From: a virus
Taxonomy: Duplodnaviria; Caudoviricetes
Strand: one strand, 5' to 3'
Length of the DNA stretch: 64,000 nt
IMG/VR virus record: IMGVR_UViG_3300025018_000148
Location: 7,094-71,093 of that record
Part shown: positions 1-64,000 of the stretch, piece by piece
Layout of the letters: each line of letters begins with the position of its first letter
Numbering within the stretch: position 1 is the first letter of the stretch
Made by a program: the position numbers and the translations under genes
The notes under the pieces: generated by a model
What the model saw: only the letters and a program-made list of their open reading frames with translations
The model's database searches: none
What the model was told of the DNA's origin: nothing

Positions 1-2
1 AC

Positions 3-338
3 ACCGTTGATTATTGGGTAGGGCAGTCGGTCGTGCCCGAATTGTGGGTGGAGAAGGATGCGTTGATTGACGTGATTCGCACCGCTTCCCGAGGGTATGA
101 CGTGACCACGTTCTCTTCCCGAGGCTACCCCAGCGACTCCGCCCTCTATGAGGCGGCTCAGCGGATCAAAGCGAGGTATCGCGAGGAAGGGCAACAGACC
201 AAGGTTCGCCACAAAGGGTTGGACAAAACCGTGCGTGTCGTGGTGGGCAACTTCGGATCTCGTGCGACTGCCTTCGATGCGGTGGACATCACGAACCCTC
301 CCGAGTGGCAGATCTTTCGCCCCCACTACCAACCTTGA
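3..338 (+). CDS. 5'-partial ORF; N-terminal part resembles phage Toprim/TopoVI-A-like family, apparently chimeric C-terminus
   Basis: Frame is open from base 3: TVDYWVGQSVVPELWVEKDAL...SRGYPSDSALYEAAQRI matches the DxWxxQ..vEvWvEKDAL..RGYxS family motif; the expected downstream GDxDPSG motif is absent. Confidence 0.55.
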   Translation, partial: TVDYWVGQSVVPELWVEKDALIDVIRTASRGYDVTTFSSRGYPSDSALYEAAQRIKARYREEGQQTKVRHKGLDKTVRVVVGNFGSRATAFDAVDITNPPEWQIFRPHYQP

Positions 339-371
339 TTTCGTTCAACCTCACACCTAGCTATACCTACC

Positions 372-1949
372 ATGAAATTCGATGTCGCAAATACCGCAGT
401 CTACAATCGGGGCTCCGCTCCATTGACCTTCCTTGTTGAACTGGTCAACATTGTTCGGGGTCTGCCCGACGAGATCGTCAGTCCCGAATACAAGTCCTCC
501 TCCGAGGAGGACATCTTCGCTTTCCTGCAACGAGGTGTCCCTGCCGCGTATCAGATCGACTCGGCCCGCCCCATTGAACGGAAGGCGTGGCTTTGCGAGG
601 TGCTCCGGGTTCTCGGGGGCTTTGAATCCTCGTGGAATTGGTTGGAGGGACGGGACACCACCAACCCCGCTTCGTTCACCCCCTGCACCACGGAAGCCGG
701 GATCTTCCAGTGCTCCGGGAACTCGACCTATTTCGATCTGTCCCTCAAGGATACCGTGGCGAAGTATGCGAGGCAGGCGAACATTAACATCGAAAAGCTT
801 TCCGCCGACAAGGTCTGCGAATTGTTTCAGGTGCTCTCGAAGCAGAGTCACGCTTTCGCCGTCGAATACGTGTGCCGCTTGCTGCGGTTCACGATTCGCC
901 ACCACGGTCCAATCAAACGTGGTGAGATCCTGCCGTGGCTTCGTGAGGGTGCCTACAAAGAGTTCCTCCGCAATCTTGAGGAACCGGCTACCATTCCCGT
1001 TCCGGTGCCTCCCTCCAAACCCGAGCCGATTCGGATCGTTCTCGATCCCGGTCACGGGGGGCATGACTCCGGAGCCCTCGGCTCCCTCATGCTCGGAGGC
1101 AAGGCAACCGAGTTCACCGAGAAGGACATCGTGCTACGGGTCAGCAACGAGTTGCTCAGGATCTTGAGCACGGACTCTCGATTCTCGGCGACTGCCACCC
1201 GGACGACGGACAAGTTCTTGACCCTTGGTGACCGCTCCCGGCGTGCCAACGAGCGCAACGCCGCTCTGCTGAGCATTCACGCCAACTCGGGAGGCGGCAC
1301 CGGGCACGAGGTCTACACCTACTTCGGTCAGTCCCCTTCCGACCCAATCGCCACCTCCCTCTACGATGCCTACGACTCGGCTTTCCCCGAGCTTGTGGGT
1401 CGCCCGCATTTGGGGGACGGGGACCCTGACAAGGAAGCCAGTTTTGCCGTGCTCCGGAACACCAAGGGGCCTGCGGTCCTCTACGAACTGGGGTTCATGG
1501 ATCGCCGGGAAGACCTCGCGCTCATGGTGGACACCGAGTTCCCCGCCCGCGCCGCCATCGCGCTCTATCTGGGGCTCCTGAGAGCGTGGAATCTCGGTGC
1601 CCCTGTCGAGCCCCCTGTCGAGCCCCCTGTCGAGCCCCCTGTCGAGCCTCCTGTGCCTCCTGTGCCTCCTGTGCCGCCTGCGCCGCCTGCGCCCCCTGTC
1701 GAGCCCCCTGTGCCCCCTGCGCCTCCTGTCGAGCCTCCTGTCGAGCCTCCTGTCGAGCCTCCTGTGCCTTCGGAGAGCCCCACGAGCGAGGAGAAGACGA
1801 GGATCGCCGCATGGCTCCTCCGAGGGGCCTTGGATCGTGAGGCAAAACTCCCGGCTCTGCTGGAAGACCAGACCATCGGCACGTTCTACGCCATGTGCCG
1901 GGAAGCGGCTGCTCTCCGGGATGCAGCCCGTATTCTTCAAGAGGCATGA
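372..1949 (+). CDS. Endolysin: lysozyme/SLT-like N-terminal domain + N-acetylmuramoyl-L-alanine amidase (Amidase_3) + Pro-rich linker
   Basis: IVLDPGHGGHDSGA, TEKDI, LLSIHANS and VLYELGF are Amidase_3 zinc/catalytic motifs; the N-terminal FESSWNW...EAGIFQ resembles a lysozyme-like fold. Confidence 0.85.
   Translation: MKFDVANTAVYNRGSAPLTFLVELVNIVRGLPDEIVSPEYKSSSEEDIFAFLQRGVPAAYQIDSARPIERKAWLCEVLRVLGGFESSWNWLEGRDTTNPASFTPCTTEAGIFQCSGNSTYFDLSLKDTVAKYARQANINIEKLSADKVCELFQVLSKQSHAFAVEYVCRLLRFTIRHHGPIKRGEILPWLREGAYKEFLRNLEEPATIPVPVPPSKPEPIRIVLDPGHGGHDSGALGSLMLGGKATEFTEKDIVLRVSNELLRILSTDSRFSATATRTTDKFLTLGDRSRRANERNAALLSIHANSGGGTGHEVYTYFGQSPSDPIATSLYDAYDSAFPELVGRPHLGDGDPDKEASFAVLRNTKGPAVLYELGFMDRREDLALMVDTEFPARAAIALYLGLLRAWNLGAPVEPPVEPPVEPPVEPPVPPVPPVPPAPPAPPVEPPVPPAPPVEPPVEPPVEPPVPSESPTSEEKTRIAAWLLRGALDREAKLPALLEDQTIGTFYAMCREAAALRDAARILQEA
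1601..1769 (+). repeat. Tandem 12-bp/9-bp repeats encoding a (VEPP)n/(VPP)n linker
   Basis: Repeated cctgtcgagccc/cctgtcgagcct units in the endolysin 3' part. Confidence 0.9.
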
Positions 1950-2419
1950 GGAAGCGAAAGGGAGTGTATTGGAAGTGGGTGTCCACCGGACCCTACGAGA
2001 CCGACGTTCTCGTGGTGCTCGGCGGAGATACCTGCAATGCGACCGAGATCTTTCGAACCGAGATGGAGAAGGCGGGTTTCGAACTCCCGCCTTTCCCCGA
2101 AGCTATGATTGATGATACAACCACCAATGGTAGGTTCTTCAACTTTCATGGCATTCGGGACTGCGGGATCTGGTTCCCCAAAATCCCTGACAATGTCCGG
2201 GAGATAGGGACGGTCGCTCACGAGAGCGTCCATGTCGCCAACCACACCCTCGCCCGATGTGGAGTTCACTATTCGGTGGAGGGCATGGAAGGAGCGGAGT
2301 CACCGAATGACGAACCGTGGGCTTACTTTGTTGGGTTCCTTGTTCGTTCCATCCTATCCTTTGCCAACGAGGTGCGAGCGGACCTCACTAAGAAAAAACC
2401 TGCGACCAAAAAATCCTAA
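1946..2419 (+). CDS. Hypothetical protein with HExxH motif (metallopeptidase-like)
   Basis: ATGA overlap with the endolysin stop; AHESVHVANH followed by NDEPWAY. Confidence 0.6.
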   Translation: MRKRKGVYWKWVSTGPYETDVLVVLGGDTCNATEIFRTEMEKAGFELPPFPEAMIDDTTTNGRFFNFHGIRDCGIWFPKIPDNVREIGTVAHESVHVANHTLARCGVHYSVEGMEGAESPNDEPWAYFVGFLVRSILSFANEVRADLTKKKPATKKS

Positions 2420-2431
2420 CCTCAACATATC

Positions 2432-2947
2432 ATGCCCCGAGTAACCCGAGTAGCCAAAGCACGCAAATCCCAAGGGACTTGTTCCAAGTGCGGAACCAAG
2501 ATCAAGGCCGGAGACCCCTACCTCTGGTGGAAGTTCAAAGTCGGCGGCAGAAGGAACCGTTGTGCGGCTCCGGCTTGCGCTCCACGAGCTTCCGATCTGA
2601 CCCAGTCCGAGTTTCTCGGGCAGTTGTATGACCTCCAAGAGCAGGTCTCGGGGTGTCGCTCCGGCGACGAGCTTCAGGAACTCGCCGATCAGGTGCGGGA
2701 TCTTGGCTCCGAGCAGGAGGACAAGCTCTCCAACATGCCCGACAGCCTCCAGTATTCGCCCTCCGGGGAGATGCTTCAGGAACGCGCCGACTACTGCTTG
2801 GAGTGGGTGGACGAATTGGAGAGCCACGCGCACGAGTTCGAGGAGCTTCAGGAAGCCATGGACGCAGCGGAAGACGAGGAAGCGGTTCTCGAAGCGGAAG
2901 AAGCCATTGAGAACTGGGCGTCCTCGATCCCCGACTACCCCGGATGA
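2432..2947 (+). CDS. Hypothetical protein: basic Zn-finger-like N-terminus + very acidic helical C-terminus
   Basis: CSKC...C..PAC motif; D/E-rich tail; A/C-rich leader before ATG. Confidence 0.7.
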   Translation: MPRVTRVAKARKSQGTCSKCGTKIKAGDPYLWWKFKVGGRRNRCAAPACAPRASDLTQSEFLGQLYDLQEQVSGCRSGDELQELADQVRDLGSEQEDKLSNMPDSLQYSPSGEMLQERADYCLEWVDELESHAHEFEELQEAMDAAEDEEAVLEAEEAIENWASSIPDYPG

Positions 2948-3177
2948 GTCTCGAACTTACACAGGAAGTGTCCCTCGCAAAGTTGATGGACGTGACACCG
3001 GTCGGGGGGTTCTTTCTCACGACCCGTGACGCTCGTTACATCACAAGGTATGCGGGGAGAAAGAGGTTGAAGATCCGGGTGCAATCGGTCAAGTTCTTCC
3101 ACCACTCCTCGGACGAACTTGTCTCGGGCAACGTGGTCACCGTGCTGGAACGAATCCCGAAAGACGATGAAGCCTGA
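2944..3177 (+). CDS. Hypothetical protein
   Basis: ATGA-coupled ORF, 77 aa. Confidence 0.6.
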   Translation: MSLELTQEVSLAKLMDVTPVGGFFLTTRDARYITRYAGRKRLKIRVQSVKFFHHSSDELVSGNVVTVLERIPKDDEA

Positions 3178-3475
3178 TGTCTGCAACAACCTACTCCACG
3201 AGACTCTCGCCAAGGTATTGATGAACGCGGCGCACGTAAACCCCGAGATTACCGGGTTCATCACCTTGGAGTTTGTCCGGCAATTGGAGATCCTCGTGTT
3301 CATGACGACCGGGAATTCCTTCAACCCTCCCATGCACAAGAACTCGTGCTTCCTTCCGGTGGTCCCGGATGGAAGCACGGCGAGGATTCTTTTCAGAGTC
3401 AGCCCCAGCCCTCGCATCGCTCTGGCTGCGTGGGAGGTCACTTCCAAACAATCCAGAGTAGCTCTGCAAAACTAA
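3167..3475 (+). CDS. Hypothetical protein
   Basis: ATG at 3167 overlaps the end of the previous gene and fills the gap. Confidence 0.5.
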   Translation: MKPDVCNNLLHETLAKVLMNAAHVNPEITGFITLEFVRQLEILVFMTTGNSFNPPMHKNSCFLPVVPDGSTARILFRVSPSPRIALAAWEVTSKQSRVALQN

Positions 3476-3481
3476 CCCGGT

Positions 3482-3730
3482 ATGAAATACGTTATCTTCG
3501 ATCAAATGGGGCAAGAGCGAGTGGTGGTCTTCGATGAAGAGATCTCTCACGCTTGCGTCGTTCACCCTGAAAACGGGGAGCCTGTCGCTGCGGGATTCTT
3601 CTACGTCGATTTCGATGGGAGCGTGGTTCTCGACAAACGTCCCGCGCAGAGTCTCGCCGACCTTGGACCTCGCCCCCAAGACGCTTCCAGCATCTCCCTG
3701 TTGCTCAAGGGATTCTCGTCTCTTGAGTGA
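3482..3730 (+). CDS. Small phage hypothetical protein (MKY...H...PVxAGF family)
   Basis: 82-aa ORF with typical codon usage; pattern recognisable in small phage proteins. Confidence 0.65.
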   Translation: MKYVIFDQMGQERVVVFDEEISHACVVHPENGEPVAAGFFYVDFDGSVVLDKRPAQSLADLGPRPQDASSISLLLKGFSSLE

Positions 3731-3772
3731 ACCAACCTTGCTCTCTTCCACGAATTCAATACCTAAACTATT

Positions 3773-4570
3773 ATGGATAGACTCGAAATACCCGCAACTC
3801 TTTCGTGGGAAGAAATCTCGCCCAAGCTTCCGGAGTGGGCGGTGAAGTTCAACGATGAGCAGAGAGCCTTGGTCCCCGAGATCCTTGACGCCTTGGTCGC
3901 GAATTGGGTCCGGGACGACTGGTTCACCACCCTCGATTTCCGCTATCTCCCGGACACGGTGGGGGACGGAGGGACACCCTACGGCAATGTCGTCCAGTCG
4001 GTTCTCGAATCCCCCCTCGTTTGGTATCACCCGGACGGGGTTCTCAAACAGCCTTTGCTCGACATCGTGGTGGAGAATACCAGATACTTGTTCTCCAACT
4101 TCATTCAGCGGCAGGCTCGCAAAGCCCCGTATTCTTTCAACACCGATTCCTTGAACACCATGCTGCGACTGCCGGGGTGGAAGGAGCTTGTGGATTTCCC
4201 CCACGAGGACCGATACCCGGAGCAGCACGGGAAGGAGCCCATTGCCCCCTACATTCTTAAAGACGAGGGCGAGAGGGTCAAGTTGGTGCCTTCCGACCGG
4301 TATGAAGCCGCCCGTTGGTGGGATCGGATTGTCGTGCAACCGGGGTGGCTGTCCGTGGAAGTCCCTCGGCCCCTGTCTTCTGCCTACTGCTACGGGTCGC
4401 ACCCACAAACCCCCGAGAACTGGCGTGGGGAATGGAAGTGGTTGAACGCCCGCGAGACGATTGGGGAGACAACCTACATTCGTTTCGACGAAGGCTACTT
4501 CCGGGGGCGCTTCGTCGTTCGGACGGACTTCATGGAATTCAAGATCCGGCGCTTCCGGACCCGCATTTAA
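3773..4570 (+). CDS. Degenerate, internally deleted paralogue of the major capsid protein
   Basis: Collinear matches to MCP 31135-32304: PDTVG/PDEMG, QSVLESPLV/QTALESPPV, IVVENT/ILTQNT, YEAA/YETA, GEWKWLN/GDWKWLN, GYFRGRF/GYFRGIF. Confidence 0.8.
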   Translation: MDRLEIPATLSWEEISPKLPEWAVKFNDEQRALVPEILDALVANWVRDDWFTTLDFRYLPDTVGDGGTPYGNVVQSVLESPLVWYHPDGVLKQPLLDIVVENTRYLFSNFIQRQARKAPYSFNTDSLNTMLRLPGWKELVDFPHEDRYPEQHGKEPIAPYILKDEGERVKLVPSDRYEAARWWDRIVVQPGWLSVEVPRPLSSAYCYGSHPQTPENWRGEWKWLNARETIGETTYIRFDEGYFRGRFVVRTDFMEFKIRRFRTRI

Positions 4571-4597
4571 CTTCTACCCTATCAACCTAACATACTA

Positions 4598-5905
4598 ATG
4601 GAACTGACCATACACCCACCTATCGACAAACTGGACGAGTATGTCCTGCAACAGCTAGAGGAGTCTGATCTCTCCGAGGAACAGAGAGCCTTGGCTCGGG
4701 AGATCATCACCACCCGCGACAACTTCCTCGTCACCGGGAATGCGGGGGTGGGTAAGAGCCACCTCCTCAATTGGCTTCGCCGGTTCATCAACCTCTCGGT
4801 GACTGCGTCTACCGGGATCGCTGCGATCCAGATCAAGGGGAGCACGATTCATGCGTTCGCCGGTCTCGGTATCGGCAAGCAGACCGCAGCGCAGATCGTG
4901 AACAGCCTTGCGGAGAAGGCGTTCAAATACAACGACCGCACCCTTCGTCGCCTTCAAGAATGTGAGCGTCTTGTCATCGACGAGGTCTCCATGCTGGATG
5001 CCGACATGCTCGATCTGCTGGAGCAGGTGCTCATGCTGGCTCGGGGCCGGGAAGAATCCTTCGGAGGCGTCCAGATGATCTTCATCGGGGACTTCCTGCA
5101 ACTGCCCCCTGTCACGAAGAAGGGACCCCCGAAGTTCGCGTTCACGGCGGAGTCGTGGCAGAATGCCGGGGTCAACGTCCGCCTGCTCACCAAGGTTTTT
5201 CGGCAACAGGACGAACACTTTTCCGCGATCCTCAACAAGATTCGTTTCGGAGAGACGGACGACGAGGTGTTCCAGTTCTTGAAGGCGCGGCACAAGGCAG
5301 TGGACACCGACCCGGCGCATCCTCCTTGCATCCTTCACACCCACAATGCCGGGTGTGAGGAGAAGAATTTGACCGAACTCGCCCGCCTGCCGGGGGAGGA
5401 AGTCATCCTCGAAGCGACCGAGTCGAGCAAGCATCCGAACTTCGCCAGTCAGATTGACAAAGAATGTTTGGCTCCTCAAAAGCTGCACCTCAAACTCGGA
5501 GCACGGGTCATGCTTCTCGCGAACTACAACCTGTCTCGGGGTCTTGCGAACGGGTCCCTCGGGGTGGTGCAGCAGATCTCTACGACGGAGGTCGAGGTCC
5601 TGTTCGACAACGGGGAGACCTGCAATGTCATCGAGTCCGATTACGAACTCATCCGTGGGGACGAAGTCGTCGCCACCCGGAAGCAGTTTCCTCTGCGCCT
5701 TGCGTGGGCGATCACGATCCACAAGAGTCAGGGGATGACCATCCCCAAGGTCGAGGCGCACCTCGCCGGGTGCTTCGCCAAGGGACAGTCCTACGTGGCG
5801 CTCTCGCGGGCCAAGACTGCGGAGGGTCTGTTCCTTCGGGGTGGCAGCGCCAACATCGAGGCGCACCCCAAAGCGGTTAAATTCTACCAAGAGCACTGCC
5901 GATGA
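4598..5905 (+). CDS. Pif1/RecD-like SF1B DNA helicase
   Basis: GNAGVGKS Walker A, ASTGIAA, IDEVSM, GDFLQLPPV, VFRQ, QFPLRLAWAITIHKSQG, YVALSR. Confidence 0.92.
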   Translation: MELTIHPPIDKLDEYVLQQLEESDLSEEQRALAREIITTRDNFLVTGNAGVGKSHLLNWLRRFINLSVTASTGIAAIQIKGSTIHAFAGLGIGKQTAAQIVNSLAEKAFKYNDRTLRRLQECERLVIDEVSMLDADMLDLLEQVLMLARGREESFGGVQMIFIGDFLQLPPVTKKGPPKFAFTAESWQNAGVNVRLLTKVFRQQDEHFSAILNKIRFGETDDEVFQFLKARHKAVDTDPAHPPCILHTHNAGCEEKNLTELARLPGEEVILEATESSKHPNFASQIDKECLAPQKLHLKLGARVMLLANYNLSRGLANGSLGVVQQISTTEVEVLFDNGETCNVIESDYELIRGDEVVATRKQFPLRLAWAITIHKSQGMTIPKVEAHLAGCFAKGQSYVALSRAKTAEGLFLRGGSANIEAHPKAVKFYQEHCR

Positions 5906-6126
5906 TCGCAGTGTCCCGGAGAGACCTTCGCACTCGGCAGGGGCGGCGAGAGGAGATCCTCGAACAAATCCAACAGCACGGAGGGTTCTCGATTTTTTGG
6001 ATCGCGGATAACCGGGTGCGAGCGAGCGTGGCTCAGAAGATGCAAGACTCCGGGGAGATCGTGACCGATACCAAGACCTGCGGTTTCCCGTGGATTAAAG
6101 TGACGCTTGCAACCCGAACTAAATGA
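5902..6126 (+). CDS. Hypothetical protein
   Basis: ATGA-coupled to the helicase. Confidence 0.6.
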   Translation: MIAVSRRDLRTRQGRREEILEQIQQHGGFSIFWIADNRVRASVAQKMQDSGEIVTDTKTCGFPWIKVTLATRTK

Positions 6127-6326
6127 GACCCCTTTCCATCCGACTTCGAAGACTCTGGTATGCTTGGTTCGCAAGACGCGATTACGGGAGAGAGCTTTCC
6201 CGGAGAGCAGAAGTCGAACAAGAGTTGTGGAACGTATACCATGGGAAGCGGGAAACTTTCACCAAAGAAGAGTGCCGGAAGTTGGCACTTAAACTCGGAG
6301 TCCCTGAACGACTTCGGGGCAGATAA
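6123..6326 (+). CDS. Hypothetical protein
   Basis: ATGA-coupled 67-aa ORF. Confidence 0.55.
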   Translation: MRPLSIRLRRLWYAWFARRDYGRELSRRAEVEQELWNVYHGKRETFTKEECRKLALKLGVPERLRGR

Positions 6327-6368
6327 ACTTTCTCAGCAGTCGTTGAGAACAACCCAAAATAGTATATT

Positions 6369-6998
6369 ATGCAAACTGAAATCCAGTCCGGCAGTCCCGG
6401 ACAACACCCCATCACGCGAGTTGATGCCCCCGGCAAAGGCGGCGCGTCTCACGCTTACGTCATTCTCGGGCTCGCCTTGGTGAGTCAGAACCCCTCCTAC
6501 GACCTTCTCCCCCTGCAATTCCAGCCGCAGCGCCGGGGCATCGGGCTCCTCTTTCAACAGGGGGCACCGGGGGGTAGCGAGGACGACCCGCAGTCGAATG
6601 GGATTCATAGCGAGGATCTCCTTGCCATCCTGATTGACCGGCACGAGGGCTTCGCCCAAGGTCCGTTCAACTGTCCCGAGAACGACGAGGTGGTGGCGCA
6701 TCTCAAGGCGGCTCTCGCCCTGCTCGATTCCCGCCGTGCCCGTCGCCAGCAGGCAGGGGTCTTGGGTCAGCAGGTCGCCGATCCCCGACCGGCAGGGGAA
6801 GCTCCTACCCCGGCAGTCGATGACTGGCGGGTCGGCGACTTTCTCAAGTATGCGGGTTCCGAGTATGAGATCGCGGAAAAACCCTCTGAGGGTTTCGTCG
6901 GGATCTTTGATGAGCGTCCGCATTCCGACCACATCGATTTCGTCAAGATTGACAACGTCGTCTTCTCTCGCGTGGGGGAGCCCGAAGGGAGCTCTTGA
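6369..6998 (+). CDS. tad1: Tad1-like (Thoeris anti-defence) signal-sponge domain with ~75-aa C-terminal extension
   Basis: GKGGASHAYVI...LFQQG...NGIHSEDLLAILIDRHEGFAQGPFNCPEN...HLKAALALLDSRRARRQQAGVLG follows the Tad1 pattern GPGGAxHxY..FQxG..GV.xxDLL.I..DRL..FQ.GPF..REN..A..H.E.AL.....R...R....V.G as recalled. Confidence 0.78.
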   Translation: MQTEIQSGSPGQHPITRVDAPGKGGASHAYVILGLALVSQNPSYDLLPLQFQPQRRGIGLLFQQGAPGGSEDDPQSNGIHSEDLLAILIDRHEGFAQGPFNCPENDEVVAHLKAALALLDSRRARRQQAGVLGQQVADPRPAGEAPTPAVDDWRVGDFLKYAGSEYEIAEKPSEGFVGIFDERPHSDHIDFVKIDNVVFSRVGEPEGSS

Positions 6999-7390
6999 CC
7001 GATTCCGGGGAGGGCTCCAGCCCTTCCAGCGAAGAATCCTCGACTGGTTCGCCGACCCCGGCTCCCCTCGATTCCTCTTCCTCCACGGACCCCGTCGAGA
7101 CCTCACCTTCGATCTCGAACACGTCCGATGGAAGTTCCGAAACGAGCGAGAGCCCGACCCAGACGACTGGGAATCCTCCGGTCTCGGATACCTCACTCGA
7201 CTCTTCTTCGGGGAGCACGGAGCCCGCGAATACCGGAAGCGGCAACTCGCCCGTCGAGCCCCCTCTGGCTGTCGAGGAGATGACGACAAAGGAACTCTAT
7301 GACGAAGCGGTCAGCCGGGACATTCCCGGTCGCTCGTCCATGAGCAAGGAAGAGCTTCAAACGGCAGTGACCAAGGCGCGTAAAGCGTAA
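6995..7390 (+). CDS. Ser/Thr/Pro-rich disordered protein with C-terminal Rho-termination-factor N-terminal-like (Rho_N) domain
   Basis: TTGA overlap with the tad1 stop; C-terminus MTTKELYDEAVSRDIPGRSSMSKEELQTAV is the Rho_N-like motif. Confidence 0.65.
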   Translation: MTDSGEGSSPSSEESSTGSPTPAPLDSSSSTDPVETSPSISNTSDGSSETSESPTQTTGNPPVSDTSLDSSSGSTEPANTGSGNSPVEPPLAVEEMTTKELYDEAVSRDIPGRSSMSKEELQTAVTKARKA

Positions 7391-58269: not shown

Positions 58270-59130
58270 CTATTCACCCTCAATTACTTGAGTCACGACA
58301 CTGGTCTCCCTCCTGACTGAGTCCTGACTAACCTGCGATAAGACGCCGATTTGAATGATTGACCTGCGACCCTCTCCGCCTGTCTTTTGACGTGTAGCAC
58401 GCCGATAGAGTTCATCGACTGTTTTGAGGTCCCCGACTTTGTGAATCGGGATCAACCCGCCCGATTCGTAGAACTTTGTTAGTGACCGTTCTGCTAGGGT
58501 TGCGACCTTCTCGTCGAATCCGTCCTCGGCTTCCGGGGAGCGGGCAGATGTGGTTTTGTTAGAGCGACTTACGGGCGGGGCTTTTGGCGGGATGTTAGGG
58601 GAGTTCTTGCTGGTATCGGTATCCGACTTTGTGATTCTGTTAGTCGGTTTCCCCGGCTTCCGGTCTCCCTCGCTGAAGTCCAACGTTTTACGAATGTTAG
58701 GGCGACCCTTTGTCTCCGGCTTCCGGACCTCCTCTCGCACCGGTTCAGGTTCGAGCAAAACCCTGATTTGAACGGACTCGGCGCGGAGGTGATCGAGTGC
58801 CAGAGAGTCGGTTTTTGTGCATCCGTCAGGGCGGTAGATCGCACCTCCGTTTCGCTGAGCTTCTGCAACAATGTTAGTCTTCCGTTTTGTGATTCTGTCA
58901 GGCGTTGCCCAGTCCTCCCTCGTCATCCGGGTTCGCACGAGATCCGGGGACAGTCCAAACTCACGGCAGCATTCCGGGAGGGATCGTTTCCCTTGTCTCC
59001 CTGCTTCGAGTTCTTGTCGTAGTGTCAGGATAGCCTTCTCCTGAAGTTCCTTCGCAGCTTGCGAAAGCTTCCGGCGCGTCTTGATGGGGCGTCCCGTTTC
59101 CTTGTCTCGTTTGATGGGCATCTCTAACAT
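58270..59130 (-). CDS. HTH protein, terminase small subunit candidate
   Basis: SLPECCREFGLSPDLVRTRMTREDW HTH-like segment; disordered middle; helical C-terminus DLKTVDELYRRAT...IIQIGVL; next to the strand switch. Confidence 0.4.
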   Translation of the reverse strand: MLEMPIKRDKETGRPIKTRRKLSQAAKELQEKAILTLRQELEAGRQGKRSLPECCREFGLSPDLVRTRMTREDWATPDRITKRKTNIVAEAQRNGGAIYRPDGCTKTDSLALDHLRAESVQIRVLLEPEPVREEVRKPETKGRPNIRKTLDFSEGDRKPGKPTNRITKSDTDTSKNSPNIPPKAPPVSRSNKTTSARSPEAEDGFDEKVATLAERSLTKFYESGGLIPIHKVGDLKTVDELYRRATRQKTGGEGRRSIIQIGVLSQVSQDSVRRETSVVTQVIEGE

Positions 59131-59244
59131 TACAACAATCCTTGCCCTCTGTCCACCCTGTCGAGGGACCTCCGGAAGTGCCGTAAAAGGGACACGGCAA
59201 AAAAGGACTTGATTCCCCCAGAATATTGGTTTAAAGGTTCCCTA

Positions 59245-59665
59245 CGCTGAAACGCGACCCGCCCCGACAGGCGGAGGGGTTCTGGTCCCAAAGGAGACCG
59301 GAAGCACCTGAGACCGAAAAGCCCGTGAGGGTGCGAGGGTCTCGAAAGCACCCCAGTTCTTTGACATCCTGACCCGCTCCACCAGGGACGCAAGGTGGAG
59401 ACCCTAACAGTGACCGAAACGGACGAGTGATCGCCGGTAGTAGAGATCCGAAAGCAGGCAGTCCCAGAACCCAGCTTTATGGGGAGGGAGACATCCGCGC
59501 CAAGTCAGGCGGGGAGGTTCGAGTAAGTGGCTTAGCTGTTAGGGTTCAGGTAATATTGTTTGTTACAGTGTTAGAGCAACCCTTGTCGTCCGTCCTTCGG
59601 GGCGGGCGGCAGGCGGGTGCAATCGATCCCGGAATTCAATCCGAGCCGGGATCGATCCCACCTGA
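59245..59665 (+). ncRNA. Candidate large structured non-coding RNA
   Basis: No credible ORF; perfect long-range helices 59277-85/59464-72, 59401-10/59536-45 and 59258-67/59597-606; local hairpins with UUCG/GAAA loops. Confidence 0.55.
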
Positions 59666-59692
59666 TACCAAAATCTAGCCTAACAAAACACT

Positions 59693-59791
59693 ATGAATCT
59701 TGAATATGTAATTGAAGACGCCTTCGAATTCCAGCCGGAGTCCTTCGACTCTGAAGTCCTCGAACTCCTCGCCGCCATCTCTCAGTCTTGA
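59693..59791 (+). CDS. 32-aa acidic peptide
   Basis: Preceded by the early leader motif (ctagcctaacaaaacactATG); MNLEYVIEDAFEFQPESFDSEVLELLAAISQS. Confidence 0.5.
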   Translation: MNLEYVIEDAFEFQPESFDSEVLELLAAISQS

Positions 59792-59895
59792 GATCCGGTG
59801 ATTCCCACCCTGCCCTGACAGTCCTTGTGGTTCTGTCAGGGCAGCAGGGAGTCTCTCGACTCCGATTAAATCTAACCTAACAAAACAATACCAGC

Positions 59896-60141
59896 ATGAG
59901 CAAAAAGCACTTCATCGCCCTCGCCGACGCACTTCGCACCTCTCGTCCGGAATGCCACTGGGACCCTAACAAAATCCTCCAGTGGCGTCTGGACGTTCAC
60001 CGAATCGCGGACTTCTGCCAGTCGCAGAACCCGCGATTCGACCGGGGCCTTTGGTTCGACTACATCGACGGGACCCGTGGTCCCTCCGGTGGCAGAATCG
60101 CCAATCCTCCCCTTGGCGTCCTCAACGTGATCGACGCCTGA
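59896..60141 (+). CDS. Early hypothetical protein (K.F..IA...NPRFDR family)
   Basis: Leader motif; MSKKHFIALADAL...QNPRFDRGLW. Confidence 0.75.
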   Translation: MSKKHFIALADALRTSRPECHWDPNKILQWRLDVHRIADFCQSQNPRFDRGLWFDYIDGTRGPSGGRIANPPLGVLNVIDA

Positions 60142-60238
60142 TGGCAGTTCCCACCCTGCCCTGGCAGAACCACAAAGTTTTGTCAGGGCAGCAGGGAGTT
60201 TCCCTCCATTTCAATCTAACCTACACTAACAAAACAAT

Positions 60239-60885
60239 ATGATTACCGAGCAAGATGCAATCGAGCAATACGTGGCAACCCGTATCTCTCAGCCGTTCAA
60301 TTGGACGAAGCTGACAATCGTCGAGTTGGTCCGGGCTGACCGGATCACCCTGACAAGTGCCTCAAAATCTCTGACCGACGAGGTCCGGGAATTCGAGTCT
60401 ATCGAGGACTGGCAAGACGCTTTCGGCGAGGACTTGTTCCCTCCCGCTCTACCTCTACGATCACTCCGGGATCACGATTTCCTGCCGCCCGTTCCACTGC
60501 CCGTTCCACTGCCCGTGGGACTCCGGTCAGGTCGGCTATGCTGTCCTGACAAAGCAAGAAATCGACTCCGAGTTCGGCGGTGACCGGGAGCGGGCGGAAG
60601 CCTGTCTCCGGTCCACCGTGAGCACCTACGACGACTACCTCACGGGGCGCGTCTACGGTTACACGATCTCAATCTCCGACGAGAACGAGGACGCCGACGA
60701 GGACCTCGACGAGATCGACGACTCCTGCTGGGGTTACTACCTCGGCGAAAAAGAGTCGGCACGGGACGACGACAGCTACCTCGCTCAAGAGGCGAGAAGC
60801 GTCATCGATCACCACCTCGCCACGGTCTCCCCGGACGGCAACCAAACACGACTCCGAACGGGACCTCGCCGGGTTCCAAAGCTGA
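60239..60885 (+). pseudogene. Doubly frameshifted early gene (PLYLYDHSG...WDSGQVG...VYGY...DSCWG family)
   Basis: Family motifs are continuous only after a frame change near 60440; the natural stop at 60883-85 is reached only after a second shift. Confidence 0.7.
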
Positions 60886-60978
60886 GCGTCTCCTGTCAGG
60901 TCATCCCCGCAATCGTGGGGGTGACTTGCAGGGAGATTCTAAGACGAAACTCCACTAACCTAACAAAACAATAATACT

Positions 60979-61344
60979 ATGACCAAGCTTACCATCACCC
61001 TTGAAGTGGACGACGACAAAATCGATGTCTGGGAATTGAATGATGAGATCCACGAGTTCTTCTCCCGCAAGCGGGCGGTGACCTCGGTGAAGATTGACGA
61101 GAATTGCGGGGGCGAGACCAACGTGGAGTTCTTCGCGAGGGTATCCGAAACCGCTCCGCGAGGAGGGGTCTTGACCCAGTGCTTTGCTCTCGACGCTATC
61201 GGGAAGCACGCCGACCGGGTTGCCGCGACTCCCGACGAGGACCTCGCCGCCCTCTTCGCGGAAAACGCCTTCATCTCGTGGCAGGCATGGAAAGCTGCCG
61301 CCCTCGACTGGGTGGAAGCTTTCAAGCTTCGCAGTCAACGCTGA
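60979..61344 (+). CDS. Early hypothetical protein
   Basis: Leader motif; stop abuts the repeat. Confidence 0.8.
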   Translation: MTKLTITLEVDDDKIDVWELNDEIHEFFSRKRAVTSVKIDENCGGETNVEFFARVSETAPRGGVLTQCFALDAIGKHADRVAATPDEDLAALFAENAFISWQAWKAAALDWVEAFKLRSQR

Positions 61345-61461
61345 GCGTCTCCTGTCAGGGCATCCCGGTGAAGTTACAACCAACTTTGCCGGGGTGTCTT
61401 GCAGGGAGATTCTGAGACCAGTCTCTCCGATCAAAAGCTAACCTAACAAAACAATAATATC

Positions 61462-61878
61462 ATGAAATTACCCGATCAGAACTGGAACCTTCCCGGCGAG
61501 GCGGAAGCCCTCGGCTTCGCGACGTTCAATAACGTCCCGCACCTCTGCGTTCACCTCCCGGATCAGAACTGCACGCTCACCGTCCGCACCTCGGATGGCA
61601 GGTTGGCGACTCTCGCCTTCTTGCAATACCGGCCCGGTGGTCCCCCGCAATGCGTCGATGTGGTCGCTCACAAGCGAGCGGACCACGAGGACAACATCCC
61701 TGAGCAGGATGTCAGGGTCTTCGGCAGGTCTCGCAAGTGTGGAGGTCTGACCGCTTATCACCACGACCCCAGTCAACCGGAGAAGGACGAAAGAGTCGTC
61801 TTCCCCAGCATCACCACGGTCATCTTCCCCGAGCCCGATCCCGAGTGGACCCCGGACAAGGAGCGGATTGCCTTGTGA
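61462..61878 (+). CDS. Early hypothetical protein
   Basis: Leader motif; stop abuts the repeat. Confidence 0.8.
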   Translation: MKLPDQNWNLPGEAEALGFATFNNVPHLCVHLPDQNCTLTVRTSDGRLATLAFLQYRPGGPPQCVDVVAHKRADHEDNIPEQDVRVFGRSRKCGGLTAYHHDPSQPEKDERVVFPSITTVIFPEPDPEWTPDKERIAL

Positions 61879-62011
61879 TTTCTCCCGTCAGGTCATCCCG
61901 GCAATTGCTGGGGTGCTCTGCGGGGAGCAATCCAAACGGACCTCCGATCAAAGCTGAAACGCGAAGCTCTGACGAGCAACGCGAAGTCTAACCTAACAAA
62001 ACAATAATACT

Positions 62012-62656
62012 ATGAGCAAACTACTTGATATATTCCTCGGTTCCCCGACTCACGTCGAGTTCCGGCAATCCCAGTTTCAGGAACTCTGCATCGAGGACCC
62101 CGAGAGGGCATTCTGGATTGCGGACGCCGCTGAGCAAGGGGAGGACGGCTCGACTCACGCGGGACACCTCGCCGACTGGCGGGAGTGGACTCCGGCATGG
62201 GTCGAGACCTACGTGGAAGGGCTCGAACGTCAGTTCGTCGCCAGCAACCCGGAACTGGCAGGCTTCACCACGGAAGCGTTCGAAGTCCTGCAAGAACTCC
62301 TCCTCGAACAAATCGGCGAGGAGATCGACGAACTCGAAGCTTGGCACGAGGCAAACGGCTCGCTCCACGAGGGGCTTTCGTCCCAAGTGCCGACTCCCGA
62401 CAAGGGGTTCGCAGAGTTCGGATGCGATGTCGCTGAGCACTTCTACCGTGAACTCAAAATCGGGGACCGTGGGACGTTCTACGAACCCGACTCGGAAGAG
62501 AACCTCGACTGCTACGTTTTTGACGTGACCGACGAGGAACGGCAGGGACTCGGCATCCGGTGGCAGAAAGCCTACCTCTTCATCGACTCCGCCCCTCAGA
62601 CGCCTCTCGTGACTGCGCAATCCTTCGCCGTCTCGGAAGAGGACCCGGACAATTGA
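62012..62656 (+). CDS. Early acidic hypothetical protein
   Basis: Leader motif; strongly D/E-rich. Confidence 0.8.
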   Translation: MSKLLDIFLGSPTHVEFRQSQFQELCIEDPERAFWIADAAEQGEDGSTHAGHLADWREWTPAWVETYVEGLERQFVASNPELAGFTTEAFEVLQELLLEQIGEEIDELEAWHEANGSLHEGLSSQVPTPDKGFAEFGCDVAEHFYRELKIGDRGTFYEPDSEENLDCYVFDVTDEERQGLGIRWQKAYLFIDSAPQTPLVTAQSFAVSEEDPDN

Positions 62657-62751
62657 CCGGTGATTCCCGACGCTCCATCCCAGACACCTCCGGGGTGGAG
62701 CGAGGGGAGTTTCCACTCCACTTCGATCAAACCTAACAAAACAATACTACT

Positions 62752-63051
62752 ATGAGCACGACATCCGATTCCAACGTCACGCCCTCCGTCGAGGACCGTC
62801 TCTCCGAGACGATCGCCAAGGCGATCTCCTATGCCACGAGAAGGGGTTCCACGGTGCTGGCAACGAAGCCCTATTCGAACCACCCTGACGATCACTACTT
62901 CTGCGTGGTGCTTCACAGGAACGTTCAAGGGGACTACGTGGTCCACACCTTCAACTCCCAGTTCGAGGGGCTCGACAACGGGGATTACAATGATTCCTTG
63001 GGGAATGCCTTGCGCGATTTCCAACGACGTGGCAGAATTCACGATCTCTGA
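62752..63051 (+). CDS. Early hypothetical protein (VHxFN...G...G.Y...L..A..DF family)
   Basis: Leader motif; recognisable small phage protein pattern. Confidence 0.8.
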   Translation: MSTTSDSNVTPSVEDRLSETIAKAISYATRRGSTVLATKPYSNHPDDHYFCVVLHRNVQGDYVVHTFNSQFEGLDNGDYNDSLGNALRDFQRRGRIHDL

Positions 63052-63150
63052 TCGTTCCCGTCAGGTCATCCCGGCAATTGCTGGGGTGCTCTGCGGGGAG
63101 CAATCCAAACGGACCTCCGATTCAAACTAACCTAACAAAACAATACTACT

Positions 63151-63732
63151 ATGAACGCAACATTCACTATTCTGGCAACCCTCTCTGGCGCGAGCTACCT
63201 CGTGCATCTCGACCAGTTCGATGGCTGGGACAACCTTGTCGAAAACCTGAAGCATGATGCGGAGGACGACCTCCGTGAAGCGTGGCAGGACCGGCAGGAC
63301 GAGGACTCCGAGGAGGAGTTCGACATCGACGAGGAGTTCGACATCGATCTCTTCGACCTCAAGGTCGATTGTGTGGACGACAAAAACTACGATCTCGGTT
63401 TCACCGGGACCAAGGTCACCGAGTCTTCCGATCTCTGGGAGTTCCTCGGGCTCGACGACGAGGAAGCGGATCTCGTCCGCTACTACTGCGAGGCGCACGG
63501 CTACGACTTCGATGACGGCACCCTGAGCAATGCGAGGGGCTGTTATGCGGGCACCTTCGATGACGAGGCTTCCTTCGCGGAGCACCTCGCCAACGAGACC
63601 GGGGCAGTCGATTTCAACCTCGCTTCGTGGATTGTGATCGACGGGCAGGCGGCATGGGATCGAACCCTCTGCTACGAATACAACTCGGTCGGCACGGACG
63701 ACGGCAAGGTTGCCATCTTCAACAACTGTTGA
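63151..63732 (+). CDS. ardA: ArdA-like antirestriction (DNA-mimic) protein
   Basis: Very acidic; C-terminus YAGTFDDEASFAEHLANETG...WIVIDGQAAWDR..C.EY.......AIF matches the ArdA C-terminal pattern. Confidence 0.7.
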   Translation: MNATFTILATLSGASYLVHLDQFDGWDNLVENLKHDAEDDLREAWQDRQDEDSEEEFDIDEEFDIDLFDLKVDCVDDKNYDLGFTGTKVTESSDLWEFLGLDDEEADLVRYYCEAHGYDFDDGTLSNARGCYAGTFDDEASFAEHLANETGAVDFNLASWIVIDGQAAWDRTLCYEYNSVGTDDGKVAIFNNC

Positions 63733-63837
63733 TTCCTCCTGTCAGGGCATCCCGGTAAAGTTACAACCAACTTTGCCGGGGTGTCTTGCAGGGAGCAATC
63801 GCTCCGAACAAAACTAACCTAACAAAACAATACTACT

Positions 63838-64000
63838 ATGAACAAAGACAAAATCGACGTGACATCCCTGCTCTCGCAGGAGGTTCGGGACCGGATCACC
63901 GTTGCGGTGGAGGAGCGACTGACCCAGTTGTTCCCCATCTTCGAGGTGATCCCTCAAGCCTTCGACGTGGTCCCCAAGATCACGGTGTCGCTCAACATCA
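63838..64000 (+). CDS. Early hypothetical protein, 3'-partial
   Basis: Leader motif + ATG; open to the window end. Confidence 0.65.
   Translation, partial: MNKDKIDVTSLLSQEVRDRITVAVEERLTQLFPIFEVIPQAFDVVPKITVSLNI

What the first reader, a model, noticed from the sequence alone, without database searches (positions are those of the whole stretch)
59802..63795. Cassette-like early gene array punctuated by conserved bulged hairpins
Each early gene's stop is followed within a few nt by a (T/C)TCC...GGGAG-closed hairpin, then the leader motif, giving gene-sized modules. Stems keep G:T pairs and bulges (e.g. ctcc-tg-t-ca-gggcatcccgg / ccggggtgtct-tg-ca-g-ggag) while loops vary, pointing to selection on RNA or ssDNA structure. 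Analogies: T7 early RNase III sites, T4 PeSL elements and integron attC sites. It may be both an mRNA-processing code and a gene-shuffling platform for anti-defence genes.
Basis: partly seen in the sequence, partly recalled or inferred. Interest (0 to 1): 0.75.

Follow-up and report, generated by a model that had tools for sequence, protein, structure and literature searches.

The report
Standard hairpin-and-leader joints between phage genes
An uncultured 71-kb phage separates about sixteen small, unrelated early genes with one repeated 90-100-base joint, made of a long RNA hairpin, a short second hairpin and a G-free leader that runs up to the next start codon; the joint most likely marks where the early message is cut or capped and keeps each start site open, which is a known kind of phage signal in an unusually uniform form without a Shine-Dalgarno sequence.

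Summary
The contig is circular or terminally redundant. The array has 15 stop-to-start joints: 8 in the window and 7 in the 7 kb before it.

Each joint reads: stop codon (14 of 15 are TGA), then a long imperfect hairpin P1 with an invariant UCC...GGGAG base, then a short hairpin P2 (GGAG...CUCC), then a G-free leader (AACCUAACAAAACAAUA...) ending at the ATG.

The fold is selected on the mRNA-sense strand:
- Mean energy is -32.4 kcal/mol on the + strand and -23.5 on the - strand.
- 16% of pairs are G·U.
- 7 pairs show compensatory changes; no shuffle out of 500 reached this.

The joints contain no sigma-70 promoter, no T-run terminator, no Shine-Dalgarno sequence and no Rfam ribozyme. In two other phages that carry a homologue of one array gene, hammerhead or twister ribozymes sit in the equivalent gaps.

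Best reading: these are intercistronic RNA punctuation marks, built like RNase III cut-and-cap sites, joined to an unstructured leader for Shine-Dalgarno-independent translation. Cleavage itself is not shown.

The joints are mosaic, with an exact shared block of up to 66 nt, so they have recombined with each other. Cassette shuffling could not be tested because the relatives share none of the early genes. An integron-like mechanism is not supported.

This scan has met the same kind of element in many other phages. I class this one as a new variant of a known kind.

The parts
59616..59692 (+). Head of the array: a different hairpin (17-nt arms at 59616-59632 and 59646-59662) followed by a short form of the leader (CTAACAAAACACT) before the 32-codon g1
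   Evidence: inverted repeat I4
59789..59898 (+). Joint 1 (g1 stop to g2 ATG): P1 59802-59851 (alpha type), P2 59848-59863, leader 59864-59895
60139..60241 (+). Joint 2 (g2 stop to g3 ATG): P1 60148-60198 (alpha type; its apex is the reverse complement of joint 1's apex), P2 60195-60207, leader 60208-60238
   Evidence: (I1)
60883..60981 (+). Joint 3 (the TGA after the frameshifted g3, to g4 ATG): P1 60890-60935 (beta type), P2 60932-60953, leader 60954-60978
61342..61464 (+). Joint 4 (g4 stop to g5 ATG): P1 61349-61408 (beta type with the apical insert GAAGTTACAACCAACTTT), P2 61405-61428, leader 61429-61461
61876..62014 (+). Joint 5 (g5 stop to g6 ATG): P1 61882-61927 (gamma type), P2 61924-61945, then an extra small hairpin with the direct repeat AACGCGAAG, leader ending at 62011
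62654..62754 (+). Joint 6 (g6 stop to g7 ATG): P1 62664-62709 (delta type, unrelated upper stem), P2 62706-62719, leader 62720-62751
63049..63153 (+). Joint 7 (g7 stop to g8 ATG): P1 63055-63100 (gamma type; shares a 66-nt exact block with joint 5), P2 63097-63118, leader 63119-63150
63730..63840 (+). Joint 8 (g8 stop to g9 ATG): P1 63733-63795 (beta type with the apical insert; identical to joint 4's P1 at 59 of 60 positions), P2 63792-63805, leader 63806-63837
59693..64000 (+). The genes that the joints separate: g1 59693-59791, g2 59896-60141, g3 60239-60885 (frameshifted), g4 60979-61344, g5 61462-61878, g6 62012-62656, g7 62752-63051, g8 63151-63732, g9 63838 onward (cut by the window end). 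They are unrelated to one another, mostly very acidic, and have no Pfam family match above its curated cut-off. The array continues outside the window as g9-g16 with joints 9-15 (L001 624-4408).

Best explanation
The repeated unit is an RNA-level joint between cistrons of one long early transcript. It has three parts.

1. P1 is a hairpin of 19-27 bp with a conserved bulged U and mismatches. It starts 0-19 nt after the upstream stop codon.
2. P2 is a hairpin of 4-9 bp that follows P1 directly. Its 5' strand GGAG is shared with the base of P1. P1 and P2 can therefore stack into one quasi-continuous helix, or P1 can lengthen by pairing GGGAG with the upstream CUCC.
3. A G-free, A/C-rich leader of 25-35 nt has A at -3 and runs up to the ATG.

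Inferred mechanism: the host double-strand RNase (RNase III type) cuts within or beside P1. Alternatively, single-strand RNases cut the open leader. Either way the upstream gene's mRNA ends in a hairpin that blocks 3' exonucleases. P1 and P2 lock up every G of the gap, so the leader stays single-stranded whatever genes lie on either side. This gives each cistron the same strong start site that needs no Shine-Dalgarno sequence.

Shown here: the layout, its confinement to the array, selection of the fold on the sense strand, the open leaders, and the absence of promoter, terminator and Shine-Dalgarno signals.

Inferred, not shown: a single transcript, cleavage, and which enzyme cuts.

A by-product is that 15 near-identical joints recombine with each other. 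This would let gene blocks be lost, duplicated or swapped.
For: Layout and number of copies.

Sense-strand fold:
- Mean energy is -32.4 kcal/mol on the + strand and -23.5 on the - strand. 13 of 15 hairpins are more stable on the + strand, and 47 of 291 pairs are G·U.
- On 11 alignable hairpins, 96.6% of cells are paired, 7 of 19 pairs change on both sides, no shuffle out of 500 reaches this, and structures slid by 1-3 columns pair at only about 50%.
- At least five unrelated upper-stem sequences sit on the same invariant base.

P2 can form in 15 of 15 joints. Its fifth pair is C-G four times, U-A three times, A-U once and U·G once. The two folds are nearly equal in energy, -33.4 against -34.1 kcal/mol.

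The hairpin family occurs only in the array and only on the + strand.

The joints hold no sigma-70-like promoter and no hairpin with a T-run. The same genome does have a TTGACC-16-TAAAAT promoter before g18 and a GC-rich hairpin followed by a partial T-run (ACCCTTTTCC) after it. The joints are therefore a different kind of signal.

Leaders:
- G makes up 2% of the 30 nt before the ATG, against 18% for the other genes of the phage. A stands at -3 in 14 of 15.
- The predicted unpaired probability over -20..+5 is 0.83, against 0.50 for the other genes (Mann-Whitney p = 1e-7).
- Most genes of the phage lack a Shine-Dalgarno sequence. In bacteria of that kind, initiation is tuned by mRNA structure and by A at -3 (PMC6847099).

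Anatomy of RNase III substrates (two helical turns, coaxial stacking of short helices, bulges that limit the cut and leave a protective 3' hairpin): PMC1540722.

Comparative support: homologues of g6 lie in arrays where the gaps hold four hammerhead-like ribozymes (L132) or a twister-P5 ribozyme plus short hairpins (L133). Clustered hammerheads that flank single phage genes were shown to cut in vitro (PMC3088659).
Against: There are no RNA data of any kind. The promoter of the array was not found: no sigma-70 match lies in 58800-59700. A single transcript is therefore an assumption.

The strict invariance of UCC/GGGAG/CUCC and of the 24-27-nt leader, beside freely varying upper stems, is more than RNase III or unstructured-leader translation would need. 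It hints at a sequence-specific partner that I could not identify.

The host is unknown, so whether it has RNase III, and what that enzyme prefers, is also unknown.

Nine relatives at 27-60% protein identity have no such joints. Five of them were read in full, and their gaps hold ordinary terminator-like hairpins with a T-run. The design is therefore not a feature of the lineage.
Confidence: 0.55

Rival explanations
1. The hairpins are never cut by a specific enzyme. They act only as passive insulators: blocks to 3' exonucleases after random cuts, a limit on the length of unstructured RNA that Rho could load on, and a lock that keeps the G-rich part of the gap from pairing with the leader.
For: The leaders are unusually open. 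Every G of the gap lies in P1 or P2. The two-fold design keeps GGAG paired in either state. No sequence feature points to a particular nuclease.
Against: It does not explain the conserved bulge and mismatch positions or the invariant base sequence. Relatives of g6 use real self-cleaving elements at equivalent gaps, which suggests that cutting is itself the selected function.
Confidence: 0.2
2. Each joint is a terminator-promoter unit of the PeSL type. P1 stops transcription of the upstream gene. The conserved 27-nt block, or the small P2 hairpin in the manner of phage N4 virion-polymerase promoters, starts a new transcript, so each gene is its own transcription unit read by an unrecognised polymerase or sigma factor.
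For: The leader is far more conserved than translation alone needs. It is about as long as a single-subunit polymerase promoter. P2 is a 4-6 bp stem with a small loop that would be equally stable in DNA of either strand. The phage has a 3293-aa virion protein and a 71-kb genome, which are N4-like in size only. No promoter was found ahead of the array.
Against: No sigma-70 pattern and no T-run occur in any joint, although the genome uses both elsewhere. Pfam, PHROGs, PDB sequences, simple motif patterns and the protein atlas found no RNA polymerase in the proteins searched: about 20 of the larger - strand and downstream proteins, including the giant one, plus the array proteins. The strand asymmetry of P1 points to RNA of the coding sense, not to template-strand DNA. 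In two genes the conserved block lies 6 nt closer to the ATG. The leader style CCTAA...ATAC also precedes genes inside the late operons.
Confidence: 0.1
3. The joints are primarily DNA elements: either a small mobile palindromic repeat, or recombination sites for gene cassettes handled as folded single strands by the phage tyrosine recombinase, as integron attC sites are.
For: The genes between the joints are unrelated ORFans. The repeat includes the stop codon: TGATTCC occurs in 7 joints, and TGA is the stop in 14 of 15 joints against 19 of 33 genes elsewhere. The joints are mosaic, with an exact shared block of up to 66 nt. The apex of joint 1's hairpin is inverted in joint 2. A tyrosine recombinase is encoded 5 kb away.
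Against: The G·U pairs would be A·C mismatches on the other strand, and the coding strand is the one that folds. No RYYYAAC/GTTRRRY pair closes the stem. The recombinase scores far below the integron-integrase and Xer cut-offs. The element is absent from the rest of the genome, from 621 kb of phage loci that carry a g3-family gene, and from 9 relatives, so there is no sign of mobility. Ordinary homologous recombination between copies explains the mosaics.
Confidence: 0.07
4. P1-P2 is a self-cleaving ribozyme of an undescribed class, taking the place that hammerhead and twister ribozymes hold in other phages.
For: The position is equivalent to that of the ribozymes in L132, L133 and L272. The base and junction nucleotides are invariant.
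Against: There is no Rfam match even at loose thresholds. Apart from one bulged U, there are no conserved unpaired nucleotides, loops or junctions that could form an active site. Apical loops and P2 loops vary freely.
Confidence: 0.03

Closest known systems
RNase III processing signals of phage T7/T3 early mRNA (R0.3-R1.3) and the Bs-RNase III sites in Bacillus phage SP82 early mRNA (Panganiban and Whiteley 1983, cited in PMC4838370)
   Same: Hairpins lie between the cistrons of an early operon. They span about two helical turns interrupted by a bulge or internal loop, have no T-run, and form a family of related copies. After a single cut the hairpin would stay on the upstream message as a 3' cap (PMC1540722).
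   Different: There are 15 copies rather than 3-5. A second hairpin shares GGAG with the first. The base sequence is invariant. The hairpins are joined to a G-free leader without a Shine-Dalgarno sequence. Cleavage is untested and the host is unknown.
PeSL composite motifs of T4-type phages (PMC2839356, PMC4122927)
   Same: A repeated unit runs from the stop codon to the next ATG. It combines a stem-loop with expression signals, is concentrated next to ORFan accessory genes, and its copies recombine with each other.
   Different: PeSLs contain a sigma-70 promoter with an AT-rich upstream element, a Shine-Dalgarno sequence and a terminator stem-loop. The joints here have none of these, their hairpins are much longer, and they are selected at the RNA level.
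Clustered hammerhead ribozymes that flank single genes in prophages (Perreault et al. 2011, PMC3088659)
   Same: They punctuate a long phage transcript into gene-length pieces, with variable gene content between the marks. One flanked gene in that paper is ardA, and g8 here matches an anti-restriction family. A homologue of g6 sits in just such an array (L132).
   Different: The joints here have no ribozyme core. Any cutting would need a protein enzyme.
Integron attC sites
   Same: Imperfect hairpins with bulged bases follow each promoter-less gene of an array. The base of the hairpin is conserved and the centre is variable.
   Different: There are no R/L core boxes and no integron integrase. 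The coding strand folds best. The conserved leader has no counterpart in integrons.

Membership tests
RNase III-type intercistronic processing signal (T7/SP82 kind) | Lies between cistrons on the sense strand of an early operon | tested here: met
   15 of 15 hairpins start 0-19 nt after a stop codon and lie 45-130 nt before the next ATG, all on the + strand. That the operon is a single transcript is inferred.
RNase III-type intercistronic processing signal (T7/SP82 kind) | About two turns of double-stranded RNA, often through coaxial stacking, with a bulge or internal loop | tested here: met
   P1 has 17-25 predicted pairs (19-27 helix positions with its bulge and mismatch), and P2 follows it directly. 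The criterion is taken from PMC1540722.
RNase III-type intercistronic processing signal (T7/SP82 kind) | Cut by RNase III in vivo or in vitro | not testable with these tools
   No RNA data exist and the host is unknown.
PeSL (T4-type promoter-early stem-loop) | Sigma-70 early promoter within the unit | tested here: not met
   No promoter-like site was found in window 58800-64000. In L001 one of the two sites found is the real-looking promoter before g18, outside the joints; the other is a weak 9-of-12 match (TTAACC-17-TATGAT, L001 3530-3558) that overlaps joint 14 and runs into the ATG of g15.
PeSL (T4-type promoter-early stem-loop) | Shine-Dalgarno sequence at the 3' end of the unit | tested here: not met
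   The 30 nt before the ATG contain 2% G.
PeSL (T4-type promoter-early stem-loop) | Copies recombine and bracket ORFan indels between related phages | tested here: inconclusive
   Mosaic joints and a 66-nt exact repeat show exchange between copies. No relative shares the array.
Integron attC | Complementary RYYYAAC / GTTRRRY core sites close the hairpin | tested here: not met
   The stem is closed by YUCC/GGGAG. The string ACCTAAC in the leader fits RYYYAAC but has no partner in the unit.
Integron attC | Integron integrase next to the array | tested here: not met
   The only recombinase found scores 28 bits against a cut-off of 220 for the XerA/integron-integrase model, and does not match an integron-integrase equivalog.
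Self-cleaving ribozymes (hammerhead, twister and other Rfam classes) | Match to a family covariance model or its core | tested here: not met
   In window 58500-64000 and in L001 the only hits are chance miRNA-like matches far below their gathering scores.
Intrinsic terminator | GC-rich stem followed by a T-run | tested here: not met
   No + strand terminator-like site lies in the array.
Phage N4-type hairpin promoter | Short DNA hairpin (5-7 bp stem, 3-nt loop) read by a virion RNA polymerase | tested here: inconclusive
   P2 has a 4-6 bp stem and a loop of 4-6 nt or more. No polymerase domain was found in the 3293-aa virion protein, but a remote one cannot be excluded.

The most novel reading that the evidence does not exclude
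The joints are the recombination sites of a phage-borne, integron-like cassette system. The folded hairpin, with its invariant base and bulged bases, is recognised as single-stranded DNA by the phage's tyrosine recombinase, so that single early (anti-defence) genes are excised and inserted as units. The RNA-level features would then be a second use of the same sequence.
Probability: 0.04. Interest if true: 0.85.

Novelty: new variant of a known kind. Interest (0 to 1): 0.45.

Why it matters
Phage early operons carry the fast-evolving genes for host takeover and anti-defence. How such genes are expressed reliably when they are swapped in and out is only partly understood.

This phage shows an extreme, almost engineered answer: one standard joint that ends one gene's message and presents the next start codon in an open context free of G. 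It resembles the ribozyme or RNase-site insulators that synthetic biologists place between genes, and it works in a system that does not use Shine-Dalgarno sequences.

Three features are concrete and testable, and could show how cutting, mRNA stability and translation are linked in such hosts:
- the invariant CUCC-GGGAG-CUCC triplet, which gives two folds of equal energy;
- the nearly invariant leader;
- the fact that related arrays use hammerhead or twister ribozymes in the same place.

The element is not a new principle. T7, SP82, the T4 PeSLs and the prophage hammerhead clusters cover the idea, and this scan has already noted many similar cases.

Tried and rejected
Searches that found no relative of the joints:
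- DNA similarity of the array to GenBank phages: no match.
- Related loci through the neighbouring 286-aa protein and a scaffold-like protein: none.
- L011, a weak g15 relative: an unrelated phage with sigma-70 promoters and AGGAGG before each early gene.
- The covariance model of P1: no hit in 80 loci that carry the g3 family, and none in 9 relatives of the phage.
- tblastn of the 24 array and downstream proteins against 5 related genomes: no hit, so gene order cannot be compared.

The contigs that hold the best g6 and g3 homologues could therefore not be fetched.

Ideas and methods dropped:
- An 11-bp tandem duplication as the cause of the g3 frameshift: removing it does not restore the reading frame.
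- A loose regular expression for the joint: too unspecific.
- A crude gene finder used to survey hairpins in relatives: it missed most of the known joints in this genome, so it served only for reading single gaps.
- A virion RNA polymerase in the 3293-aa protein: no support.
- Read-through of TGA or an altered genetic code: rejected, because the long ORFs are intact under table 11.

Full report
**Where the array lies.** The window is bases 7094-71093 of a single 71,093-bp virus contig. The contig's ends overlap by 192 bp with 2 mismatches, so the genome unit is about 70.9 kb and is circular or terminally redundant. Most genes lie on the - strand: a 3293-aa virion protein, structural genes, an A-family DNA polymerase, helicases and a tyrosine recombinase. 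After a 560-bp gap that follows the - strand gene at 58270-59130, a + strand array of small genes starts at window 59693. It runs off the window end and continues in contig 1-4822, fetched as L001.

**The observation.** The motif CTAACAAAACA occurs 9 times on the + strand of the window, where shuffles give 0.31 matches, and 16 times in the whole array. Between g1 and g16 there are 15 gaps with one layout:
- a stop codon (TGA in 14 of 15, often as TGATTCC);
- a long imperfect hairpin P1, closed by YUCC...GGGAG;
- a spacer;
- CUCC;
- 6-10 nt (about 65 nt in joint 5, which holds an extra small hairpin);
- AACCUAACAAAACAAUA(A/C)UA(A/C)U and then ATG.

In joints 10 and 11 a second small ORF, coupled to the first, comes before the hairpin.

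**The fold is real and belongs to the sense strand.**
- P1 alone folds at a mean of -32.4 kcal/mol on the + strand and -23.5 on the - strand. 13 of 15 hairpins are more stable on the + strand, and 47 of 291 pairs are G·U.
- On 11 hairpins that can be aligned by sequence, 96.6% of cells pair and 7 of 19 pairs change on both sides. None of 500 shuffles reaches the observed values, and structures slid by 1-3 columns pair at about 50%.
- Four further hairpins (joints 1, 2, 6 and 10) have unrelated upper stems on the same invariant base.
- A covariance model of P1 finds the 11 training copies and joint 10 on the + strand, weak mirror hits on the - strand, and nothing else in the window.

**A second hairpin and two folds.** Directly 3' of P1, GGAG pairs with the downstream CUCC in all 15 joints (-3 to -10 kcal/mol). 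The fifth pair of this helix is C-G four times, U-A three times, A-U once and U·G once, and longer spacers form an inner helix. The same GGAG can instead pair with the upstream CUCC and lengthen P1. The two states are almost equal in energy, -33.4 against -34.1 kcal/mol, and the P1-plus-P2 state is the more stable in 8 of 15 joints. In that state the two helices abut without a gap. The upstream CUCC lies 0-10 nt after the stop codon, so a terminating ribosome would probably cover it. This last point is inference.

**What the joints are not.**
- The scans find no convincing sigma-70-like promoter and no hairpin with a T-run on the + strand in the array. The only promoter-like match that touches a joint is a weak 9-of-12 site at L001 3530-3558 that runs into the ATG of g15.
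- The same genome has a good TTGACC-16-TAAAAT promoter before g18. After g18 it has a perfect 12-bp GC-rich hairpin followed by ACCCTTTTCC.
- Rfam finds no ribozyme or other RNA family, even at loose thresholds.
- The recombinase is a generic tyrosine recombinase that scores far below the curated cut-offs.
- No RNA polymerase was found.

**The leader.**
- The 30 nt before each ATG hold 2% G, against 18% for other genes of the phage and 28% for the strand as a whole.
- A stands at -3 in 14 of 15 joints, and the second codon starts with A in 13 of 15.
- The predicted unpaired probability over -20..+5 is 0.83, against 0.50 for 32 other genes (p = 1e-7).
- Most genes of the phage lack a Shine-Dalgarno sequence and have A/C-rich leaders of the CCTAA...ATAC type.

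This matches what is known for bacteria that seldom use Shine-Dalgarno pairing, where mRNA structure and A at -3 tune initiation (PMC6847099). The host is unknown. An amidase, a SPOR-like domain and a heptosyltransferase-like gene suggest a Gram-negative bacterium.

**Comparison with other phages.** The array proteins are unrelated to one another, mostly very acidic, and have no Pfam match above a curated cut-off. g8 matches a PHROG annotated as an anti-restriction protein. g3 is a frameshifted member of a very large phage family.

The N-terminal domain of g6 has homologues. Two of them lie on IMG/VR contigs:
- In L132 four successive gaps hold a hammerhead-like element with the full CUGAUGA...GAAA...GUC core. 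Rfam scores two of them (E = 0.0017 and 0.03, below the gathering score). Each is followed by a small hairpin and an ACAAU-ATG leader.
- In L133 one gap holds a twister-P5 ribozyme above the gathering score, and three others hold a short conserved hairpin.

One of 18 loci of the g3 family also has a twister-P5. Clustered hammerheads that flank single prophage genes, ardA among them, were described and shown to cut in vitro (PMC3088659). So the same kind of gap in the same kind of array is filled by self-cutting RNAs in other phages. This is the best indirect support that the hairpins here mark processing sites. The anatomy fits the published criteria for RNase III substrates (PMC1540722) and resembles the T7 and SP82 cases (PMC4838370).

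**Exchange at the DNA level.** The joints are mosaic:
- Joints 4 and 8 share P1 (59 of 60 positions, with a 38-nt exact block) but differ in both flanks.
- Joints 3 and 4 share flanks, as do joints 8 and 9.
- Joints 5 and 7 share a 66-nt exact block.
- The apical insert GAAGTTACAACCAACTTT occurs in joints 4, 8 and 13.
- The apex of joint 2's hairpin is the reverse complement of joint 1's.

The copies have therefore exchanged segments. The nested direct repeats (joint 4 ... 5 ... 7 ... 8) could delete or duplicate gene blocks, as another note on this genome also says. This resembles the behaviour of PeSLs (PMC2839356, PMC4122927), but the defining promoter and Shine-Dalgarno sequence of PeSLs are absent.

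Whether genes are actually shuffled could not be tested. Relatives found through the capsid protein (60% identity) and a 606-aa protein (27-48% identity, mostly near 47%) have neither the hairpins nor the leader, and none of the 24 array and downstream proteins tested has a hit in the five relatives read in full. Their gaps contain ordinary hairpins with a T-run.

**What remains unexplained.** The UCC/GGGAG/CUCC triplet and the leader are nearly invariant while the upper stems drift. This is more constraint than RNase III or an unstructured leader requires, and it suggests a sequence-specific partner: a protein, or an RNA. One candidate lies ahead of the array. Window 59553-59580 is an inverted copy, identical at 24 of 25 positions, of the leader of g17, the first gene after the last joint. 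As RNA it would pair perfectly with the g17 start region (-40 kcal/mol). It would pair moderately with the joint leaders (mean -19.9, against -12.2 for shuffled versions), but hardly better than with other start regions of the phage, which average -16.5. I leave this as a lead.

**Verdict.** The RNA-level reading is well supported. Cleavage by an RNase III-type enzyme is the most likely mechanism but is unproven. The cassette-shuffling idea is plausible only as ordinary recombination between repeats, and the integron analogy fails. This scan has already reported hairpin-plus-leader punctuation in many other phage early operons, some of it also with two alternative folds. This is therefore a clean and extreme new variant of a known kind.

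Noticed in passing
window 60239-60974: g3 is broken. The first 70 or so codons are in the frame of the ATG at 60239. The conserved domain (PLYLYDHSG...WDSGQVG...DSCWG) is in the next frame from about 60441. That frame has no stop before the hairpin and reads through the whole joint, while the TGA at 60883 next to the hairpin is in the third frame. The domain belongs to a family of more than 4300 phage proteins of 190-245 aa with unknown function (phrog_6186). An 11-bp tandem duplication (CCGTTCCACTG twice, at 60489) lies inside the gene, but removing it does not restore the frame.
   Followed up: partly
window 59553-59580 and L001 4837-4861: A 25-nt inverted repeat, identical at 24 of 25 positions, brackets the whole array of joints. 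The right copy is the leader of g17, the first gene after the last joint. The left copy lies in the structured gap ahead of g1. It could be an antisense regulator of the g17 start site, a relic leader or a site for inversion.
   Followed up: partly
L132 9870-11445 (IMGVR_UViG_3300020042_006270): Four consecutive gaps between small genes, one of them a g6 homologue, each hold a hammerhead-like ribozyme with a complete core. Each is followed, after the GUC cut site, by a small hairpin (UGGCACAUGCCA) and a leader without a Shine-Dalgarno sequence. This is the same layout as the engineered ribozyme insulators used in synthetic operons. The first gene has a (CAAA)n leader.
   Followed up: partly
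L133 11875-11944; L272 1770-1834: Twister-P5 ribozymes above the Rfam gathering score lie in gaps of early-type gene arrays of two other uncultured phages. L133 also has three copies of a short hairpin (TCTCTCCATTGG...CTAATGGAGAGT) after other genes.
   Followed up: no
L001 5253-5280 and 5793-5820: There is a good sigma-70-type promoter (TTGACC-16-TAAAAT) 9 nt before the ATG of g18, and a perfect 12-bp GC-rich hairpin followed by ACCCTTTTCC after g18. An inverted copy of the leader core (GTTAGGTTAG) lies just before that hairpin. This marks a second transcription unit with ordinary signals right after the array.
   Followed up: partly
window 59825-59844 and 60156-60175: The apical loop and upper arm of hairpin 1 are the reverse complement of those of hairpin 2, while the bases of the two hairpins keep the same orientation. 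The hairpin tip has been flipped in place.
   Followed up: partly
L291 (IMGVR_UViG_3300033571_014509) 670-7045: Another phage of GC 0.55 that carries a g3-family gene has ten copies of a short palindrome (TTGTCCNGNCCGGACAA) near gene ends. Its leaders, such as AACCCTAAAACAAAATG and CCCTAACCCTAATAACAATATG, are very like the leader studied here. This suggests a host group that shares this leader style.
   Followed up: no
window 63151-63732: g8 (193 aa, 50 of them acidic) matches phrog_36653, annotated as an anti-restriction protein (E = 1.5e-6). It is the only array gene with a functional hint.
   Followed up: no
L001 1150-1357 and 1885-2037: Two small extra ORFs share a joint with the gene before them. 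One has 68 codons and starts in the overlap GTGATGA at the end of g10. The other has 50 codons, looks like a membrane peptide, and starts 1 nt after the stop of g11. The hairpin therefore follows the last gene of a translationally coupled pair, not every ORF.
   Followed up: no
L310 and L261 (IMG/VR loci with g3-family genes): These phages have repeated stop-to-start units with a TTGAC(C/G)...-10 promoter, an AGGAGA Shine-Dalgarno sequence and GTTAACC motifs. They are PeSL-like units in phages that are not T4-type.
   Followed up: no
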